A stretch of 55,927 bases of DNA, taken from the sequence record OZ035768.1; one strand, 5' to 3'. This document shows, piece by piece, positions 4,761 to 33,395 of this stretch. Position 1 is the stretch's first letter. Each line of letters starts with the position of its first letter. The DNA comes from Sashavirus 536P12. The position numbers and the translations under genes were made by a program. Below the pieces are notes generated by a model. The model was not told the origin of the DNA. It did no database searches and saw only the letters and a list, made by a program, of their open reading frames with translations.

Positions 4761-4848
4761 TATCTGTTAGATTAATGTAACGCGTTTATACTCCTGTAGG
4801 TAACCGATCGGTTACAGTTAATTAACATTCTCTCACAGGAGTTTCAAC

Positions 4849-5526
4849 ATGTCTGACATGACTTTAGTTCCCACTGGCGGTTTCGGCGGTGAAGCTGGCG
4901 CGGCTGCACTTGGCGGTGGCATCGGTGGTCTTATCGGTTCCTGGTTCGGTAACGGTTGGGGTGGCGGTGGTAACTTTGGTGGTCCTGTAGAAGTTCAAGC
5001 CTCTGTAGATACCAACGCTATTCTGCAAGCCATCAATAACGGTGCTCTTCAGACCATTCAGGGTCAGAATGGTACAAACCTGACCGTTGAACGCGCTGCA
5101 GCTTCCACTTTTAACGGTATCACTCAACAGAACACACAAAACCTGCTGGCATCTGTACAAGGTTTTGCAGGTCTGAACACTCAGATTCAGCAGGGTACGA
5201 ACACTGTGACCAATGCGATCTGTGCATCTGAAACTGCGGCACTGACTCGTTCTTTCCAGGCACAGTTAGCGGCTGAGAAGTGTTGCTGCGAAACCAACCT
5301 GAATATCGAACGTCAGGCAGAAGCAACTCGTGCACTGATCCGTGATCAGTTCGCACAGTCTCAGGCTGTTCTGATTTGTGACCTGAAATCTCAGATTCAA
5401 ACCCGTGACTTCCAGTTGTCTCAATTGTCACAAACGTCTCAGTTGGCGTGCAAAATTAACCAGGTCGATCAGCTTATTAACTTCAAGCTGCCTACTCCGC
5501 AAACTCCACCGACTGGCTGCTGCTAA
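4849..5526 (+). CDS. Gly-rich / glycine-zipper N-terminus, Gln/Thr-rich, Cys-containing protein of unknown function
   Basis: 225 aa; N-terminal GGFGGEAGAAALGGGIGGLIGSWFGNGWGGGGNFGG, internal CCC, C-terminal GCC; strong SD AGGAG; first gene after TerL terminator. Confidence 0.6.
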   Translation: MSDMTLVPTGGFGGEAGAAALGGGIGGLIGSWFGNGWGGGGNFGGPVEVQASVDTNAILQAINNGALQTIQGQNGTNLTVERAAASTFNGITQQNTQNLLASVQGFAGLNTQIQQGTNTVTNAICASETAALTRSFQAQLAAEKCCCETNLNIERQAEATRALIRDQFAQSQAVLICDLKSQIQTRDFQLSQLSQTSQLACKINQVDQLINFKLPTPQTPPTGCC

Positions 5527-7676: not shown

Positions 7677-7964
7677 TTATTCTCCGATTGCTTTTTTGAT
7701 TGCTTCACGAGCACCTTCAATACGTGCTAAACCATCAAAACCTGTACTTGGTAAGTATGACATAAACTCTTCACATAACTGCAAGGCTTCTAACAGTTCC
7801 GGCGCTGCAGCGATTAATCGTGCGTTTGCTAATTGTTCTGTTTTGTCACCGTTATAAGTTGGTGTATATGCAATCTCAACACCTGAGTCTGAAACAATAT
7901 CGGGAGTATTATCATCATTGATAATAACTTTCCACGAACCTTTTGTACCTTTAAATTGGTTCAT
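7677..7964 (-). CDS. hypothetical protein
   Basis: ORF 7677..7997; likely start at internal ATG 7964 preceded by GGGGTG SD. Confidence 0.45.
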   Translation of the reverse strand: MNQFKGTKGSWKVIINDDNTPDIVSDSGVEIAYTPTYNGDKTEQLANARLIAAAPELLEALQLCEEFMSYLPSTGFDGLARIEGAREAIKKAIGE

Positions 7965-7969
7965 AATTA

Positions 7970-8392
7970 TCACCCCGCGTCCTGAATATCTTCCCATTCT
8001 TCGTCAGATATATTTTGCCCAAAAACACCGCCGTAAAAGTAATCTTCACCAGGCCAAACAATACTGCCACCATAATAACCATTAGAACTGTTACGATAAT
8101 CAATGACTAAATCACCTTTATCGGTGGTTATTTTTGCACCATAGAATTGAAGATAATCATATTCTTCATTTGCTAACGGTTCTTTATTCATATCTAAATC
8201 ATCGCAAGCAATGACGGTAAACGGAAAACCTAATGCTGGAAGTTCTACTGATTCAATCCATGTGTGTGAATAACAGTCAGCATCAACACGAACGATCAGT
8301 TGTTGACCATCATCAGTGACAAAAAGAAGTGCTTTTTTATCCGAAGCGATTTGCATTTTAACTATTTTCTTATTCAATAATAAGTTATTCAT
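7970..8392 (-). CDS. hypothetical protein
   Basis: 140-aa ORF in minus-strand operon. Confidence 0.5.
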   Translation of the reverse strand: MNNLLLNKKIVKMQIASDKKALLFVTDDGQQLIVRVDADCYSHTWIESVELPALGFPFTVIACDDLDMNKEPLANEEYDYLQFYGAKITTDKGDLVIDYRNSSNGYYGGSIVWPGEDYFYGGVFGQNISDEEWEDIQDAG

Positions 8393-8395
8393 AAT

Positions 8396-8545
8396 TCAAA
8401 ACCCCTTACTTTTAGCAATTTGTTGTGCGCGTTTTTTAGTGTGACCAGCGGTAACCAAGCGTTTAACTTCTGCTTTACGGCGTTCGAAGTGATCGGAGCG
8501 TGAATTTTCAACCCACGGGCGACTAATATTCTCGTTCGGATTCAT
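8396..8545 (-). CDS. small basic protein (49 aa), unannotated in the ORF track
   Basis: ATG at 8545 with AAAGGA SD; stop overlaps the start region of the 7970..8392 gene. Confidence 0.3.
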   Translation of the reverse strand: MNPNENISRPWVENSRSDHFERRKAEVKRLVTAGHTKKRAQQIAKSKGF

Positions 8546-8557
8546 TTTAGTGTCCTT

Positions 8558-8854
8558 TCATTTGTAATAAAGTTCTTTTTCAAGCCTGATGATTTCTTCT
8601 TTCAACCACGAAAGTTCTAAAAGAGTTTGTTTACCCCACGCCGTCACTTCGGCATACCGTTTACACTCATAACTGTGTTTTTTACGCTCGTAACAGGTAA
8701 GATGTCGTTGACAACGCGTGCTATTTGAAAGGTGAAACCTTATGTTTACACTAACGCGGTTTTCAATTAAATCATCATTTATACAATCGTTTACGTTGCG
8801 CCAGTCTTGTCGCATTTTAGCTAGTACAACAAGTTTTTCAGCCCGTGTGGTCAT
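8558..8854 (-). CDS. hypothetical Cys-rich protein
   Basis: 98-aa ORF; several Cys/His. Confidence 0.5.
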   Translation of the reverse strand: MTTRAEKLVVLAKMRQDWRNVNDCINDDLIENRVSVNIRFHLSNSTRCQRHLTCYERKKHSYECKRYAEVTAWGKQTLLELSWLKEEIIRLEKELYYK

Positions 8855-9163
8855 TTAACTGTCTCCGGTACAAACCACATTGACGCGAGATACGCACACC
8901 CGGCAATTTTATGTTCGTGTTTAGGTTCGAAACTACCCAGAATCACGCTGATGTGTGCGTGGGCCTGTTTAAAATCCACACCTTTAACAGCAACCGCGTA
9001 TTCTTTCAGACCATTGAAAAACCATTTGCTGATCCACTGATTCCACGGGTTAGAATTTTCGAAAAAATTCTTTCGGAATACTACCCATCGTCGGGAGGAA
9101 TTCAGCAATGTTTTTAGGTCCAAAAGCAATATCCAGTTGTGTAATATTTTCATTCGGTTTCAT
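8851..9163 (-). CDS. hypothetical protein interrupted by a frameshift at a T6/A6 homopolymer
   Basis: ATG at 9163 with AAGGGTGA SD opens a 37-codon frame (MKPNENITQLDIAFGPKNIAEF...) that stops just after the A6 run at 9062-9067; the protein-like continuation lies in the +1 frame (ORF 8851..9153); removing one nucleotide from the run fuses them into ~103 aa. Confidence 0.35.
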
Positions 9164-9189
9164 AGTTATCACCCTTCGTTCATTTGATG

Positions 9190-9235
9190 ACTAAAGCATA
9201 ATCGCATGTTTGCAATCTGTCAAGAATTATTTTAA
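9190..9235 (-). promoter_or_regulatory. conserved promoter element (P4)
   Basis: GTCAAGAATTATTTTAA at 9219-9235; minus-strand -35 TTGACA, 17-nt spacer, -10 TATGCT. Confidence 0.65.
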
Positions 9236-9305: not shown

Positions 9306-10661
9306 ATGGCTGATCAACAATTCGAACAACTAGCCGTTGCCGGGTACAGTCGAACAGGCAACCAGGTAAACGACGATTTCCTTCCTAAACTGAATGGTAA
9401 ACAAGGCCGTCGTATTCTTCGTCAGATGGCTGAGAACGACGAAACGATCGGTGGTGTACTGTTTGCTATGAGTAGCGTTTATCGTTCTGTACAGTGGATT
9501 TTTGACCCGTCTGACAAAGATGATCCAGAAGCTATCCGTTATTCAGAATGGTTACAGGATGCTATTGAAAATAAAATGGGTGATCCGCGTGGTGCACTCC
9601 CGGATGATACCTGGTCTGCGTTCGTTCAGACATGGACAGACGTTGATGTATTCGGCTGGGGTTGGTATGACATTTGGGTGAAAGATCTTGATGACGGCAC
9701 GGTGGGTATTGCCCGTCTGGTTCCTGTAGCGCCTGAAACGCTTGCTGGATGGGATATAGAAGAACCGACAGGTTATGTTCGTGGTATTTATCAACGTTCA
9801 CCTAACCAGGGTACAACGACGTTAATCACGCGTGACCGTTCGCTTCATTTGATTTCAAGTCCGAATAAAGGTAACCCGGAAGGTTTATCACTGCTGCGCA
9901 CAGCTTATCGTCCGTGGTACTACAAAAAAGTGAATATGGAAATCGAATCCATACTTGCCGAACGTGGTACAGGGTTCCCGGTAATTACTGTTAACGCAGA
10001 TATTAAGAAAGCGGCTAATGACCCCAACGTTCCTGAACAACAGCGTCAGGCAGCACAGGCGATGATTGATAACTATGAAAACATCGTCGCTAATATCAAA
10101 CGCAATGAACAATCAGGGCTGGTGATTTATTCTAAACCGTATATCATGGGTTACGATAACGAAACAGGTGTTACTACGTACGGTGGTGAACAACAGGTGA
10201 AACTGGAATTCGTTACACCTAACCAGACCAGTTCCGTGGATATTGACCGGACGATTAAACGCCTGGATACCAGTATTGCCCGTGCGTTACTGGCTGATTT
10301 CATGTTTTTCGGAACGGGTGGTAATACCGGGAATAACGCTAATCTGGGTAGTCGTACTGAATTATGGATCCGCGCAATGCAATCACGTATTGACAGCATT
10401 GTAGAATGTGTTAATCGTCAGTTGATACCGCAGTTATGGTCGTTAAACGCATTCCCGAATGAATACCGCCCGTCGATTCGCGCCGGGTCGATCAGTAAAG
10501 ACAGTATCGAGACGTTGACCACTGCACTTGCACGACTTGCACAAGCTGGTGCGCCTGTATTCCCGGATCCAGACCTTCAGGAATACGTATATAAAGAGGC
10601 TGGTCTACCTATTACGGGGATTGATAAAGCAGGGGACGGATTACCGTCTATTGACGACTGA
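9306..10661 (+). CDS. portal protein candidate
   Basis: 451 aa; size and position (after terminase, before MuF-like protein and capsid genes); no motif checked by search. Confidence 0.5.
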   Translation: MADQQFEQLAVAGYSRTGNQVNDDFLPKLNGKQGRRILRQMAENDETIGGVLFAMSSVYRSVQWIFDPSDKDDPEAIRYSEWLQDAIENKMGDPRGALPDDTWSAFVQTWTDVDVFGWGWYDIWVKDLDDGTVGIARLVPVAPETLAGWDIEEPTGYVRGIYQRSPNQGTTTLITRDRSLHLISSPNKGNPEGLSLLRTAYRPWYYKKVNMEIESILAERGTGFPVITVNADIKKAANDPNVPEQQRQAAQAMIDNYENIVANIKRNEQSGLVIYSKPYIMGYDNETGVTTYGGEQQVKLEFVTPNQTSSVDIDRTIKRLDTSIARALLADFMFFGTGGNTGNNANLGSRTELWIRAMQSRIDSIVECVNRQLIPQLWSLNAFPNEYRPSIRAGSISKDSIETLTTALARLAQAGAPVFPDPDLQEYVYKEAGLPITGIDKAGDGLPSIDD

Positions 10662-15805: not shown

Positions 15806-16189
15806 TTATTTAATGATTAATGTTGGTTGTAAGTCTTCTTCATACCAAGTCCAACCAATGCATGTACCATCTTCAGCATCAACATATGGTTTCAACCAAT
15901 CGATAAATTGTTCAATCTCACTATCATAATTTTTAATATCGCTACGACTAAAAATATATTGAGTATCGGTGAAATCAAATTTAGGACAACTATTTATTAC
16001 TTCCGGGTGATGATAAAAACTGCTACAACTACCAATAAAATTCCACCTGGGGAGACTGAAAAACTTATGTTGTGGTAGTTTCTCTGGTTCTTTTTCACCA
16101 CAGAACATGTGTGCAATAACAGCTTTCACATCCACAGGTACATCTGCTTTAATCTGACACTTCAATACTAATTCGGTATACATTCCCAT
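15806..16189 (-). CDS. hypothetical protein
   Basis: ORF 15806..16264 over-extends into promoter P7 (TTG start); likely start ATG 16189 preceded by GAGGGTG. Confidence 0.45.
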   Translation of the reverse strand: MGMYTELVLKCQIKADVPVDVKAVIAHMFCGEKEPEKLPQHKFFSLPRWNFIGSCSSFYHHPEVINSCPKFDFTDTQYIFSRSDIKNYDSEIEQFIDWLKPYVDAEDGTCIGWTWYEEDLQPTLIIK

Positions 16190-16229
16190 TTTCACACCCT
16201 CGTTCATAAGCAACCCATCACTGCTTCCC

Positions 16230-16277
16230 GTGATAAAGATACCCCACCGCTTGTAATCCGTCAAGAATTATTTTAAA
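16230..16277 (-). promoter_or_regulatory. conserved promoter element (P7)
   Basis: GTCAAGAATTATTTTAAA at 16260-16277; minus-strand -35 TTGACG, -10 TATCTT. Confidence 0.65.
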
Positions 16278-24215: not shown

Positions 24216-24452
24216 TCAGCAACAGTCATTTGGTAACGTGGTGCTTTCCATGCTTGAAGTGCTTTTTCTGCGCTTTTTTTGTGTTTTATACGGTTTGATA
24301 CTTGTTAAAATAGCAGTTGTAATACCTGCACCATAACCACGGTCTGTTTCCTGACAAACTCGAAACAAACCATCAATTTGTTTAACTACTAAACGTTTGA
24401 ACGCAATATTGCCCGTTTCTTTGTTGATGTAGCGTTGAATTACCCGTTCCAT
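24216..24452 (-). CDS. hypothetical protein
   Basis: 78 aa; GAGGG SD; driven by P9. Confidence 0.4.
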   Translation of the reverse strand: MERVIQRYINKETGNIAFKRLVVKQIDGLFRVCQETDRGYGAGITTAILTSIKPYKTQKKRRKSTSSMESTTLPNDCC

Positions 24453-24590: not shown

Positions 24591-25013
24591 ATGTCAAAGT
24601 TTGACCATCTGAAAAAAGCACTTTCTCCATTAGTGCTGAAGTCTTCTGCTGAACTGATTTTAAATGAAAATTTCAGTATCACCGTGTTGAACCTGAACAC
24701 CGCTAACCAGGTATATAACGTAACAGTCGCGGACTATGTAAAACAGAACGGTGTGTTGTCTGAAAACTTCTTTGAAAAACTGTGGAATCAGGAATATACA
24801 CCAGAAGGTGTTAAGTTCGTGGCTAACGTTCTTATGCTGGACTGGAAACTGATTGGTGAAGATGACAAACCGGAACCATTCAGTGTTGAAGAAGCTATTG
24901 AACTGTTAAGTGATGAACGTTTCGGTCAGGTGATCTACAGTCGTGTTATTCAGTTCGCAATTAATTCCGCATTCTTCCAGGACGAATGGGAAAAACAGAT
25001 TGAAAAAAACTGA
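24591..25013 (+). CDS. tail assembly chaperone (gpG-like)
   Basis: 140-aa acidic protein immediately upstream of the frameshift partner and tape measure gene. Confidence 0.55.
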   Translation: MSKFDHLKKALSPLVLKSSAELILNENFSITVLNLNTANQVYNVTVADYVKQNGVLSENFFEKLWNQEYTPEGVKFVANVLMLDWKLIGEDDKPEPFSVEEAIELLSDERFGQVIYSRVIQFAINSAFFQDEWEKQIEKN

Positions 25014-25309
25014 TCGACTTCCTCTTGTGGAACGATAAGACAGACGGGGACGACCTGGACTGGGTTACACAAGGGGCGGCTGCACGTGGTATATCTGTTC
25101 CGAGTGTTGTACAGAAACGTCCTGAATTGCGACCTGATGCTATCTTTTACTGGAATGCTTATCTTGATTTGATAAATAGTGATTGGGTTGCTTGTGAGCG
25201 GTATGCACGGGTGTATAACGTTGATGTACAGTTCCTATGGAAATTATTGGTAGCATTGCGGTCTGCACGTGTTGTCGAGATGAAGAAAAATAAACATAAG
25301 CCCGGTTAG
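24591..25309 (+). CDS. tail assembly chaperone frameshift product (gpGT-like), -1 frameshift at A_AAA_AAC (25004-25010)
   Basis: slippery heptamer A AAA AAC just before the G stop (25011-25013); -1 frame is open from 25004 to 25309 (ORF 25025..25309). Confidence 0.5.
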
Positions 25310-25322
25310 TTCCGGGCTTTTT
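25299..25322. terminator. bidirectional terminator hairpin
   Basis: AAGCCCGGTTAGTTCCGGGCTT followed by a T-run, at the junction of convergent genes. Confidence 0.6.
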
Positions 25323-26217
25323 CATTTATGTAGTCGAGGATTGCGGGAGAATATTTAAACCACTCTGTAGCACCGTCAAAGCCTTTGAGACGCGCATTAA
25401 GTTCACGGAAGACCTTGTGTACCTCTTGTTCCAGTTTGTAAGCATCAGCGCCGTGTGGAAATGGATACGACACGAGTTTAACCACGGGGTGCGGAGTTCG
25501 TCGTTGTAGTTGTCGTAGTCGCTGTTTTAAGTCGTTTGTAACACCGACTTTAAGCAGAGTGGGACACTGTTTATCATCGGTTAACACGTAGAGTGTACCG
25601 GGTTCAAGTGGGTTGAAACCCGCTTGTGAACATTGTGGGCAAGCGTTTAAACAGCAATGGTTATTAGGAGTCTGTTCAAACACCCCATGCTCGGGACATA
25701 TTATTTTTACTCGAGTGAAATTATTAATATACTCCACCAGTGAGTAATCGTATTTGTTTCCGTGAATTTCACGAGCACGATTGACGAATTCTTCAGTAGT
25801 CAAGCGTTGTTGTTCAGACGACTGTTCCCGAGCACATTGTGGGCAACCTCTCCCGTGAACATGGTTGTTAGGAGTCTGTTCAAACACCCCATGCTCTGGG
25901 CATGTTATTTTTACTTTAGTATGAGCGCCTTTATGTTCCACCAACGAGTAATCGTATTTGTGTCCATGGAGTTCACGCGCCCGTGTGATGAATTCTTCTA
26001 CAGGTGATCGTTTTTGTTCTACCGCACACCATGGACACCCATGTTTCAAAGAAACATGATTATTAGGAATCTGTTCAAACACACCATGTTCTGGACAGGT
26101 GACCTTCACAGGAGTACACCAATTCACATACTCCACTAGCGAGTAATCGTATTTGTGCCCGTGAAGTTCACGGGCACGCGTGATAAACTCTTCTGTGGTT
26201 AAACGTTTCCTACTCAT
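25306..26217 (-). CDS. T5orf172 (GIY-YIG-like) domain protein with three N-terminal zinc-ribbon-like repeats (homing-endonuclease-like)
   Basis: 303 aa; three ~65-aa repeats (TTEEF..RARELHGHKYDYSLVEY...CPEHGVFEQ.PNNH...GCPxC); C-terminal LYVLTDD...LLKVGVTNDLKQRL matches the T5orf172 signature. Confidence 0.55.
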   Translation of the reverse strand: MSRKRLTTEEFITRARELHGHKYDYSLVEYVNWCTPVKVTCPEHGVFEQIPNNHVSLKHGCPWCAVEQKRSPVEEFITRARELHGHKYDYSLVEHKGAHTKVKITCPEHGVFEQTPNNHVHGRGCPQCAREQSSEQQRLTTEEFVNRAREIHGNKYDYSLVEYINNFTRVKIICPEHGVFEQTPNNHCCLNACPQCSQAGFNPLEPGTLYVLTDDKQCPTLLKVGVTNDLKQRLRQLQRRTPHPVVKLVSYPFPHGADAYKLEQEVHKVFRELNARLKGFDGATEWFKYSPAILDYINEKARN

Positions 26218-32998: not shown

Positions 32999-33024
32999 CA
33001 AGTTATCTAAGCCGTTGGCTTGTT

Positions 33025-33395
33025 TCCGTTGCAACATCTGAGCAGTGGAAAGATAAGCAGACAGGAGAAAAGAAAGAACAGACTGAATGGCATCCGTGGT
33101 CATCTTCGGAAAGCTTGCTGAGGTTGCAGGAGAATACCTTAGCAAAGGCTCGCAGGTTTACATCGAAGGACAACTTCGCACTCGTAAGTGGACTGACAGC
33201 AATGGCGTGGACAAATACACCACTGAGATTGTCATTCCGCAGATGGGTGGCTTTATGCAGATGCTTGGCGGTAAACGTGATGATTCTGGTCAGCAACAAC
33301 AACGCCAGCAACGACAACAACAGCAACCACCAAAACAACAAAGCTCACAAGGAGGAAATGAGTCTCCTATGGACTTCGAAGATATTCCGTTTTGA
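33025..33395 (+). pseudogene. ssb: single-stranded DNA-binding protein (ssb) remnant: N-terminally truncated and frameshifted
   Basis: frame 1 encodes [21 protein letters not shown], then a 1-nt frame change near 33092 continues as [34 protein letters not shown]...MDFEDIPF (ORF 33087..33395); collinear with E. coli SSB residues ~36-178 as recalled; first ~35 residues absent; no SD before ATG 33087. Confidence 0.6.

What the first reader, a model, noticed from the sequence alone, without database searches (positions are those of the whole stretch)
8851..9163. Gene split by a +1/-1 frame change at a T6/A6 homopolymer
The well-initiated frame (ATG 9163, SD AAGGGTGA) stops a few codons after the homopolymer at 9062-9067, and the protein-like continuation is in the adjacent frame down to 8851. 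One nucleotide fewer in the run gives a single ~103-aa protein. This is either a homopolymer sequencing error, a phase-variable gene or a programmed frameshift.
Basis: seen in the sequence. Interest (0 to 1): 0.45.

Follow-up and report, generated by a model that had tools for sequence, protein, structure and literature searches.

The report
One-base frameshift in small phage gene
A small phage gene of unknown function is split in two by one extra T in a run of Ts, an ordinary slippage mutation (or possibly a sequencing error) at a site that mutates repeatedly in related phages, and not a programmed frameshift.

Summary
On the minus strand, ATG 9163 opens a frame that reads GAA TTT TTT CGA AAA TTC TAA and stops at 9052-9050 after 37 codons. 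The protein-like continuation runs in the +1 frame to TGA 8853-8851. Removing one T from the T6 run (9067-9062) gives a 103-aa protein.

The window appears to be a complete genome of a 9NA/Sasha-like siphophage. The gene belongs to the 9NA gp20 family (PHROG 36680, function unknown). All five GenBank relatives that carry the whole gene, eight further viral or metagenome contigs, and 62 diverse homologues encode one uninterrupted ORF. The repaired 103-aa sequence occurs exactly in six independent assemblies. An AlphaFold model folds both halves into one compact all-helical domain (pLDDT 95).

The T6C allele was found only in this window. The same T run carries other natural out-of-frame alleles: T5 (-1) in at least six samples, T7 (+1) with a second indel upstream, and a neighbouring A3 to A4 change. 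This is therefore a slippage hot spot in a dispensable early gene.

Most likely this is a real null or leaky allele (about 0.6). A homopolymer sequencing error remains possible (about 0.3). Programmed frameshifting or phase variation is not supported (about 0.05). Interest is low.

The parts
9195..9223 (-). Sigma-70-like promoter TTGACA-17-TATGCT for the leftward operon of small early genes, divergent from the portal gene (9306-10661, + strand)
   Evidence: 10 of 12 consensus matches; sequence. This is a consensus match only; function is inferred.
9169..9176 (-). Shine-Dalgarno AAGGGTGA, 5 nt upstream of ATG 9163
   Evidence: read directly from the sequence.
9050..9163 (-). Frame-0 ORF: 34 native N-terminal residues of the gp20-family protein followed by RKF and a stop (37 aa, MKPNENITQLDIAFGPKNIAEFLPTMGSIPKEFFRKF*)
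   Evidence: The 37-aa product is on record only for the 55,927-nt NCBI contig.
9062..9067 (-). T6 run (A6 on the + strand), the site of the one-base insertion. In-frame relatives have T5C or T6 without the C.
   Evidence: Alignments A1, A2 and A3; allele census; homopolymer list.
9052..9070 (-). AT-rich inverted repeat AGAATTTT/AAAATTCT. The variable T run sits in its 5' arm and loop, and the repeat forms an 8-bp hairpin in single-stranded DNA.
   Evidence: -4.7 to -5.3 kcal/mol, z about -2.3 to -3.1. Any role in promoting slippage is inferred.
8851..9061 (-). +1-frame continuation encoding the native C-terminal 69 residues (ENSNPWNQW...GSFEPKHEHKIAGCAYLASMWFVPETVK*). Its stop overlaps the ATG of the next gene (ATGA at 8854-8851).
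   Evidence: family alignment A4.
8851..9153 (-). ORF B: the +1 frame is open from an ATG 10 nt downstream of the true start. It would give 100 aa: 31 out-of-frame residues followed by the native C-terminus. The SD spacing is poor (about 15 nt).
   Evidence: Equivalent ORFs were called in other frameshifted alleles (P0090, P0012).

Best explanation
This is one gene, not two. It is the first gene of a leftward early operon in a 9NA/Sasha-like siphophage and encodes a 103-aa all-helical protein of the 9NA gp20 family (PHROG 36680, function unknown). In this genome a run of five Ts has gained one T (TTTTTC to TTTTTTC). This looks like Streisinger-type replication slippage at a mononucleotide run inside a small inverted repeat. 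Ribosomes starting at ATG 9163 therefore stop after 37 codons, and the conserved C-terminal two-thirds of the protein is left out of frame. The allele is most likely a real null or strongly reduced-function variant of a dispensable accessory gene. The same T run is a natural indel hot spot in this phage group. A low level of spontaneous +1 slippage of tRNA-Phe on UUU_UUU_C (UUU to UUC, before the minority Arg codon CGA) would regenerate exactly the wild-type protein, so the allele may be leaky. That would be adventitious, not programmed. What is shown: the insertion relative to the ancestral state, the single-ORF family, and the other natural alleles at the site. What is inferred: that the extra T is in the DNA rather than only in the assembly, that the allele is null or leaky, and that the hairpin contributes to slippage.
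For: (1) The five GenBank relatives with the whole gene (Bas82, AVIO78A, SP069, 9NA gp20, SP-062) have GAATTTTTC where the window has GAATTTTTTC, and each annotates one 312-nt CDS.
(2) The repaired 103-aa sequence exists exactly on six Logan contigs, of which the four shown come from four sequencing runs.
(3) In 62 homologues down to about 40% identity, both halves lie in one ORF, with invariant residues on each side of the site (F14 and P24; F48, A67, P80, H82, E83, H84, K85).
(4) AlphaFold gives one compact domain spanning both halves (pLDDT 94.9, pTM 0.88).
(5) The census of the site shows these alleles:
- In-frame: TTTTTCGAA, TTTTTTGAA and TTTTTCAAA.
- Out of frame, T5 (-1): 12 contigs. 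The six shown are from six different runs, and three of those have also lost the 3' end of the gene.
- Out of frame, T7 (+1) together with A5 to A4 51 nt upstream: 4 contigs, at least 2 runs.
- Out of frame, A3 to A4 (+1).
Alleles shared by independent samples and carrying further changes cannot be read errors, so real slippage and real gene decay occur here.
(6) The frameshift scan found no split in any large gene. The window-specific small indels (9062, 15093, 20152, 24275, 33095, 46019) lie between genes or in small accessory ORFs. Yet ORFs of at least 150 aa hold 62% of the bases and about half of the runs of 6 or more. That is the pattern expected after selection, not of random error.
(7) The window's 49-aa neighbour protein is EEO8517467.1 from a Salmonella Rubislaw genome, on a 55,927-nt NCBI contig. 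From my own knowledge, such surveillance genomes are normally Illumina assemblies, in which T5/T6 consensus errors are rare.
(8) UUU_Ynn is described as especially prone to +1 shifting in bacteria, and UCC_UUU_CGU is the influenza A shift cassette (PMC5009743). CGA makes up 10% of Arg codons in this phage's large ORFs.
Against: The T6C allele was found nowhere else: there were no hits in viral, genome or metagenome contigs, and the C-terminal ORFs of the window are absent from the 15-billion-protein collection. It is therefore a singleton, which is also what an assembly error looks like. The window has a second unique frame change at a homopolymer (T7 on the + strand at 24274-24280) and a unique one-base deletion in an SSB remnant (33095). 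An error-prone assembly could produce these too. No reads are available. The sequencing platform is inferred, not known. Leaky +1 slippage is inferred from general knowledge. In-frame UUU_Y occurs 68 times in the large ORFs of this phage, so the site alone signals nothing special.
Confidence: 0.6

Rival explanations
1. Homopolymer sequencing or assembly error: the phage DNA really has T5C and an intact 103-aa gene, and the extra T exists only in the deposited contig.
For: The allele is unique to this contig. The change is a one-base expansion of a mononucleotide run, the classic error of flow-based and nanopore chemistries. The window has other unique length differences in T or A runs: 20152 (T7 against T6), 24275, and 15093 (G7 against G5).
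Against: No frameshift affects any large or essential gene, although those genes hold about half of all runs of 6 or more. At about 96-97% identity to the nearest relatives, a handful of real small indels is expected. The second frame change (24275) is a cluster of one insertion plus two substitutions, and the third (33095) is not in a homopolymer, so neither looks like a simple homopolymer miscall. The probable source is a surveillance genome that is likely Illumina-based (the platform rests on my own knowledge). Real indel alleles at the same site are documented.
Confidence: 0.3
2. Programmed +1 ribosomal frameshift, or transcriptional slippage, that normally produces both a 37-aa peptide and a 103-aa fusion from two overlapping ORFs.
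For: The site UUU_UUU_CGA contains the +1-shift-prone tetranucleotide UUU_C followed by a minority Arg codon (PMC5009743). The shift would give a sensible full-length protein.
Against: The defining feature, conservation of the two-frame arrangement, fails. All GenBank relatives, all eight viral or metagenome contigs, and 62 homologues have a single in-frame ORF. T6C is a singleton. No stimulatory element was identified (no SD-like sequence just upstream was seen in the sequence read, and the A-site codon is not a stop), and the only structure contains the site itself rather than lying downstream. T6 is too short for efficient transcriptional slippage (established knowledge). By contrast, the real programmed site in this genome, the tail assembly chaperone A7 at 25003-25009, is conserved in relatives.
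Confidence: 0.03
3. Contingency (phase-variable) locus: the T run within the inverted repeat toggles the first gene of the early operon on and off in phage populations, and the window captures an OFF state.
For: Several tract-length alleles occur at one spot in nature (T5C, T6, T5, T7, T6C and the neighbouring A4), both in frame and out of frame, in independent samples. That is four of about six distinct frameshift alleles seen in a 312-nt gene. The site lies in a hairpin-forming inverted repeat.
Against: Tracts of 5-7 nt are below the length at which slippage rates give useful switching (established knowledge of bacterial contingency loci). OFF alleles go on to decay (3' truncation in L014-L016) or acquire a second indel elsewhere (A5 to A4), rather than reverting at the tract. 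In-frame alleles dominate strongly: the main intact cluster alone holds 118 distinct sequences. No within-sample heterogeneity data are available.
Confidence: 0.05

Closest known systems
Streisinger slipped-strand frameshift mutations at mononucleotide runs (classical phage T4 rII and lysozyme hot spots)
   Same: One repeat unit is gained in a short homopolymer during replication. The gene is inactivated by a frame change. The site recurs as a hot spot with both +1 and -1 alleles, and a second nearby indel can restore the frame, as in the T7 plus A4 allele.
   Different: Here the events are inferred from natural sequence variants, not from measured mutation rates. The run is embedded in an 8-bp inverted repeat whose contribution is untested.
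'Savior' or 'problem' indels with low-level compensatory frameshifting (for example herpes simplex thymidine kinase G7 +/-1; Atkins et al. 2016, PMC5009743)
   Same: A one-base indel in a homopolymer inactivates a viral gene, and the run itself is shift-prone. A small fraction of ribosomes could therefore restore the full-length product. Here a UUU to UUC re-pairing would give the exact wild-type sequence.
   Different: There is no evidence here that the indel is advantageous or that compensation occurs. The tract is T6, not G7 or G8, and the direction is +1.
+1 shift-prone UUU_Ynn sites, including Yersinia YopN-TyeA and the influenza A PA-X cassette UCC_UUU_CGU (PMC5009743)
   Same: The window reads UUU_UUU_CGA: a P-site Phe codon followed by C, with an Arg CGN codon in the A site.
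   Different: Those sites are conserved in their two-frame form and yield a functional trans-frame product. This one is a singleton allele of a normally in-frame gene. The family test for conservation was run and failed.
Programmed -1 frameshift of tail assembly chaperones (lambda G/GT type), present in this same genome at 24591-25309
   Same: Two overlapping ORFs are joined at a homopolymer (A7 at 25003-25009).
   Different: The chaperone arrangement is conserved in relatives and is annotated as ribosomal slippage in AVIO78A. The gp20 split is not conserved.
Salmonella phage 9NA gp20 / PHROG 36680 (hypothetical protein family)
   Same: The repaired protein matches the family profile end to end (E = 2.4e-49). 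It shares the motifs DIAFG..LP..IP.EF and GSFEPKHEHK.AGCAYL.S.WF and the position next to the portal gene.

Membership tests
9NA gp20 family (PHROG 36680) | Full-length match to the family profile | tested here: met
   The repaired 103-aa protein matches phrog_36680 with E = 2.4e-49, residues 1-103 against profile positions 1-106 of 116. There are 70 homologous clusters.
9NA gp20 family (PHROG 36680) | A single uninterrupted ORF of about 100-120 aa carrying both the N-terminal DIAFG..LP..IP.EF motif and the C-terminal GSFEPKHEHK motif | tested here: not met
   In the window the two motifs lie in different frames. They lie in one ORF in 62 of 62 aligned homologues. The window copy is a disrupted member.
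Programmed ribosomal frameshift (recoding) site | The two-frame arrangement and shift site are conserved among homologues | tested here: not met
   All five GenBank relatives, eight viral or metagenome contigs and 62 homologues are in frame. T6C gave no other hits.
Programmed ribosomal frameshift (recoding) site | A shift-prone codon arrangement that allows tRNA re-pairing in the new frame | tested here: met
   In UUU_UUU_CGA, tRNA-Phe can re-pair from UUU to UUC. UUU_Ynn is described as +1-prone (PMC5009743). However, 68 in-frame UUU_Y sites occur in the large ORFs, so the feature is not specific.
Programmed ribosomal frameshift (recoding) site | Stimulatory element (upstream SD-like sequence, A-site stop or hungry codon, or downstream structure) | tested here: inconclusive
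   The A-site codon CGA is a minority Arg codon (5.5 per 1000). The only hairpin includes the site itself. No SD-like sequence was seen just upstream in the sequence read; no dedicated scan was run.
Phase-variable contingency locus (simple sequence repeat switch) | A repeat tract long enough for high-frequency slippage (typically 7-8 nt or more for mononucleotides) | tested here: not met
   The tract is T5-T7 across alleles and T6 in the window.
Phase-variable contingency locus (simple sequence repeat switch) | ON and OFF tract-length alleles among close relatives | tested here: met
   T5C and T6 are in frame; T5, T7 and T6C are out of frame.
Phase-variable contingency locus (simple sequence repeat switch) | Tract-length heterogeneity within a clonal population | not testable with these tools
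   This needs read-level data or deep sequencing of lysates.
Slippage-derived frameshift allele (pseudogene or null allele) | Gain or loss of one repeat unit in a mononucleotide run relative to an intact ancestral state | tested here: met
   T5C to T6C against all in-frame relatives. The exact intact protein exists elsewhere.
Slippage-derived frameshift allele (pseudogene or null allele) | The change is present in the DNA molecule, not only in the assembly | not testable with these tools
   No reads are available. Indirect evidence only: no frameshift in large genes, and the probable source record.

The most novel reading that the evidence does not exclude
The T run inside the AGAATTTT/AAAATTCT inverted repeat is a selected hypermutable switch. 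It turns the first gene of the early leftward operon on and off in 9NA/Sasha-like phage populations. OFF alleles such as the window's T6C remain partly expressed through +1 tRNA-Phe slippage at UUU_UUU_CGA. This would be a phage contingency locus combined with compensatory recoding.
Probability: 0.05. Interest if true: 0.55.

Novelty: already known. Interest (0 to 1): 0.15.

Why it matters
The main value is for annotation. The locus should be recorded as one frameshifted gp20-family gene (a disrupted copy or pseudogene), not as two small ORFs and not as a recoding site. It also shows that this family of small early genes is dispensable and repeatedly inactivated, truncated or recombined in nature, which is useful when choosing candidates for functional work on 9NA/Sasha-like phages. 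The recurring indels at one T run within an inverted repeat give a small natural example of a slippage hot spot. If a phenotype for gp20 is ever found, the natural T5, T6C and T7 alleles are ready-made nulls.

Tried and rejected
- **Programmed frameshift:** rejected, because homologues are uniformly in frame.
- **Two separate conserved ORFs:** rejected for the same reason, and because the AlphaFold model is a single domain.
- **Other copies of the T6C allele:** searches of viral, genome and metagenome contigs found nothing. E. coli complete genomes and PLSDB plasmids have no match to the locus at all.
- **Source record:** a look-up with the 37-aa product found nothing. The exact-sequence look-up gave only indirect identification through EEO8517467.1.
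- **Function of the protein:**
  - Pfam gave no hit.
  - The PDB sequence profile gave only E of at least 1.1.
  - Foldseek against PDB had a best E of 0.74 and TM of about 0.2.
  - BFVD gave two unnamed viral proteins at E of about 3e-4.
  - The afdb50 library was unavailable.
  - Function stays unknown.
- **Rfam:** no RNA family anywhere in the window.
- **Raw indel listing:** the first listing against relatives was dominated by alignment noise in divergent regions and was replaced by an isolated-indel filter.
- **Quasi-palindrome correction as the cause:** considered and rejected as a template-switch event. T5 to T6 does not make the repeat more perfect; it only enlarges the loop.
- **The compensated T7 plus A4 allele as proof of selection:** not claimed. 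It replaces 16 conserved residues and could be two neutral events.

Full report
**What is in the sequence**

Read on the minus strand, the region has four features in order:
- a promoter-like TTGACA-17-TATGCT at 9223-9195;
- an SD AAGGGTGA at 9176-9169;
- an ATG at 9163;
- the reading frame MKPNENITQLDIAFGPKNIAEFLPTMGSIPKEFF RKF*.

The codons around the site are GAA TTT TTT CGA AAA TTC TAA, so the frame stops at 9052-9050 after 37 codons. The T6 run is at 9067-9062 (A6 on the + strand). The +1 frame continues ENSNPWNQWISKWFF...GSFEPKHEHKIAGCAYLASMWFVPETVK* to TGA 8853-8851. That stop overlaps the ATG of the next gene (ATGA). The +1 frame happens to be open from a second ATG at 9153, giving a 100-aa ORF B. 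Removing one T gives a 103-aa protein. The frame change is +1, meaning one extra base.

**What the window is**

Megablast places the window among 9NA/Sasha-like siphophages (Nonanavirus/Sashavirus). It is about 96% identical to Escherichia phages AVIO78A, PJ16, Bas82 and PDP46 and to Sashavirus BDX09P1 over most of the first 25 kb. Identity is lower to Salmonella phages Sasha, Sergei, SP069 and 9NA.

The window is not itself in the phage collection. Exact-sequence look-ups place its proteins on a 55,927-nt NCBI contig, which is the full length of the window. Its 49-aa protein (8396-8545) is EEO8517467.1 from a Salmonella enterica serovar Rubislaw genome. The window is therefore probably a phage contig in a surveillance genome assembly. 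That such assemblies are normally Illumina-based is my own knowledge, not a tool result.

**Comparison with relatives**

The gene lies next to the portal gene and diverges from it. Five GenBank relatives carry the whole gene: Bas82_0012, AVIO78A_027, SP069_00100, 9NA gp20 and SP062_00430. Each annotates a single 312-nt CDS.

In the DNA alignment every one of them has GAATTTTTC where the window has GAATTTTTTC (A1). BDX09P1 has a different 5' part and shares only the 3' half. Identity to Bas82 is 98.0% over the 550 nt that match, which span this gene, the intergenic region and the start of the portal gene.

The repaired protein is identical to P0076, called on six Logan contigs; the four shown come from four sequencing runs. 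Contig L024 is 99.2% identical to the window over 508 nt, and its only gap is at this T.

**The family**

The repaired protein matches PHROG 36680 (unknown function) end to end (E = 2.4e-49). It has no Pfam hit.

A search of the 5.8-billion-sequence set returned 70 clusters, nearly all 100-130 aa and covering 88-100% of the query. An alignment of 62 full-length members, down to about 40% identity, shows conserved motifs on both sides of the frameshift site in one polypeptide:
- DIAFG..LP..IP.EF before the site;
- W..WFF.GL...GVD..A..HI.AILGSFEPKHEHK.AGCAYL.S.WF after it.

Invariant residues lie on both sides: F14 and P24 before; F48, A67, P80, H82, E83, H84 and K85 after (A4). AlphaFold2 on this alignment gives one compact five-helix domain spanning residues 1-103 (pLDDT 94.9, pTM 0.88).

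No solved structure resembles it significantly:
- PDB sequence profile E of at least 1.1;
- Foldseek against PDB E of at least 0.74;

BFVD returns only two unnamed viral proteins. The function stays unknown. The 37-aa product lacks three of the five helices and the invariant PKHEHK motif, so it is very unlikely to be functional (inference).

**Other alleles at the same site**

Short or odd homologues turned out to be products of other disrupted alleles.

In-frame alleles:
- TTTTTCGAA: 11 loci, from nine distinct sources because Bas82 and AVIO78A were each fetched twice.
- TTTTTTGAA: a synonymous C to T change, in four IMG/VR or metagenome contigs.
- TTTTTCAAA: the 9NA and SP069 type.

Out-of-frame alleles:
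- TTTTTGAA (T5, -1): 12 contigs. The six shown come from six different runs and have different downstream genes. Three of them (L014-L016) have also lost the 3' end of the gene.
- TTTTTTTGAA (T7, +1) together with A5 to A4 51 nt upstream, which restores the C-terminal frame: 4 contigs, at least two runs, one from DDBJ and one from SRA.
- TTTTTCAAAAGA (A3 to A4, +1): P0012, P0090 and P0091.
- The window's TTTTTTCGAA (T6C, +1).

Out-of-frame alleles that are shared by independent samples and carry further changes cannot be read errors. Real slippage and real decay therefore occur at this spot, and the gene is dispensable in nature.

The run sits in the 5' arm and loop of an 8-bp inverted repeat (AGAATTTT/AAAATTCT). 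As single-stranded DNA this folds at -4.7 to -5.3 kcal/mol in the different alleles. That it promotes slippage is plausible but untested.

The T6C allele itself was found nowhere else. The locus has no match in E. coli complete genomes or in plasmids.

**Real mutation or sequencing error?**

I looked for other frame-changing differences across the genome. A six-frame scan of relatives against the window found no split in any large gene.

Isolated small indels specific to the window are:
- 9062, this site;
- 20152, T7 against T6, in the terminator after the capsid gene;
- 46019, intergenic;
- 24275, where a 78-aa gene at 24216-24452 has a unique C-terminus, against an 87-aa form on 82 contigs, through one inserted base plus two substitutions next to an A run;
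- 33095, a one-base deletion outside any homopolymer, in a remnant of an E. coli-like SSB gene;
- 15093, G7 against G5, in a 49-codon ORF annotated only in Bas82.

ORFs of at least 150 aa cover 62% of the window and hold 47-55% of the runs of 5 or 6 bases and longer. None of these indels falls in them. Under random error that pattern would be unlikely, a few percent by my rough estimate. It is what purifying selection on real mutations produces.

Relatives show the same kind of variation. AVIO78A has two genes split relative to the window, and L013 and L017 differ in an A run in the 49-aa gene.

Against this, the allele is a singleton and no reads can be inspected. I put a real mutation at about 0.6 and an assembly error at about 0.3.

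**Programmed frameshift or phase variation?**

The defining feature of a recoding site, conservation of the two-frame arrangement, was tested and failed. This genome's real programmed site is the tail assembly chaperone pair at 24591-25013 and 25025-25309, with A7 at 25003-25009. It is conserved in relatives and is annotated as ribosomal slippage in AVIO78A.

The site itself, UUU_UUU_CGA, does contain the +1-prone UUU_C tetranucleotide. [quoted passage not shown] CGA is a minority Arg codon here, at 5.5 per 1000. A +1 re-pairing of tRNA-Phe from UUU to UUC would regenerate exactly ...KEFFENSNPW..., the wild-type protein.

The allele may therefore be slightly leaky, in the sense of the compensatory frameshifting described for indels in viral genes (PMC5009743). 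That is an inference. In-frame UUU_Y occurs 68 times in the large ORFs, so the motif alone is no sign of a programme.

Phase variation is unlikely for three reasons. The tract is only 5-7 nt long. OFF alleles decay or acquire second-site indels rather than reverting. In-frame alleles predominate.

**Verdict**

This is one gene of the 9NA gp20 family, interrupted by a one-T expansion at a natural slippage hot spot. It is most likely a real null or leaky allele, possibly a homopolymer assembly error, and not a programmed event. It is an ordinary kind of feature and should be annotated as a frameshifted gene. Interest is low, at 0.15. The only mildly unusual aspect is the recurrence of independent indel alleles at a single short run.

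Noticed in passing
window 24216-24452 (- strand); T7 on the + strand at 24274-24280: A second frame change unique to the window. The 78-aa product ends QKKRRKSTSSMESTTLPNDCC*. Bas82_0044 and a 19-member cluster, whose Bas82 form alone is on 82 contigs, are 87 aa and end QKGAEKALQAW...EGKI. The DNA change is AAAAAGGTGCAG to AAAAAAAGCGCAG: one inserted base plus two substitutions in an otherwise 99% identical region.
   Followed up: partly
window 33019-33395 (+ strand); deletion at about 33095: Remnant of an E. coli-like SSB gene. The window ORF (102 aa, ending MDFEDIPF) starts at an ATG created or exposed where relatives read ...EWHRVVIFGK. Bas82_0054 (130 aa) and BDX09P1 have ATGGCATCGCGTGG, while the window has ATGGCATCCGTGG, one G fewer and not in a homopolymer. 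The window product is unique in the protein collection.
   Followed up: partly
window 24591-25013 and 25025-25309 (+ strand); A7 at 25003-25009: Tail assembly chaperone pair with the slippery run ATTGAAAAAAACTGA. The same sequence is annotated as ribosomal slippage in AVIO78A (27291). This is a conserved programmed frameshift and serves as a positive contrast to the gp20 split.
   Followed up: partly
window 4822-5523 and about 15809-16267, against AVIO78A (L008 7056-7713 and 18215-18599): The deposited AVIO78A genome has two genes split into overlapping CDS pairs (016/017 and 044/045) where the window and Bas82 have single ORFs. One difference is T5 against T6 at window 16091. Frameshift differences in small genes are common across this phage group.
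   Followed up: partly
related proteins P0015/P0017, P0068, P0047 (BDX09P1, L005) and P0027: The conserved C-terminal module of gp20 (GLKEYAVAV...GSFEPKHEHKIAGCAYL...) occurs fused to unrelated N-termini. One fusion partner is the start of the neighbouring 106-aa gene (window 7677-7997). Conversely, the gp20 N-terminus occurs fused to a PF27050-family gene. This points to frequent illegitimate recombination within this block of early genes.
   Followed up: no
window 8396-8545 (- strand); A6 on the coding strand at 8432-8437: The 49-aa neighbour gene also varies at a homopolymer. L013 and L017 have A5 where the window, L021 and L023 have A6, which changes the C-terminus (51 aa against 49 aa). 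This protein is EEO8517467.1 (Salmonella Rubislaw), which identifies the probable source of the window.
   Followed up: partly
window 25306-26217 (- strand): A 303-aa ORF with three internal repeats of a motif resembling ...EEFI(T/N)RAREL/IHG.KYDYSLVE....CPEHG.FEQ.PNNH.... It lies on the opposite strand between the tail chaperone genes and the tape measure gene. Bas82 annotates an endonuclease at the equivalent place (Bas82_0047). It is probably a homing-endonuclease-like insertion.
   Followed up: no
window 8851-8854 (- strand): The stop codon of gp20 overlaps the start of the next 98-aa gene (ATGA), which suggests translational coupling. In the frameshifted allele, ribosomes stop 196 nt upstream, so expression of the downstream gene may fall. 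That gene does have its own GGAG 8 nt upstream of its start.
   Followed up: no
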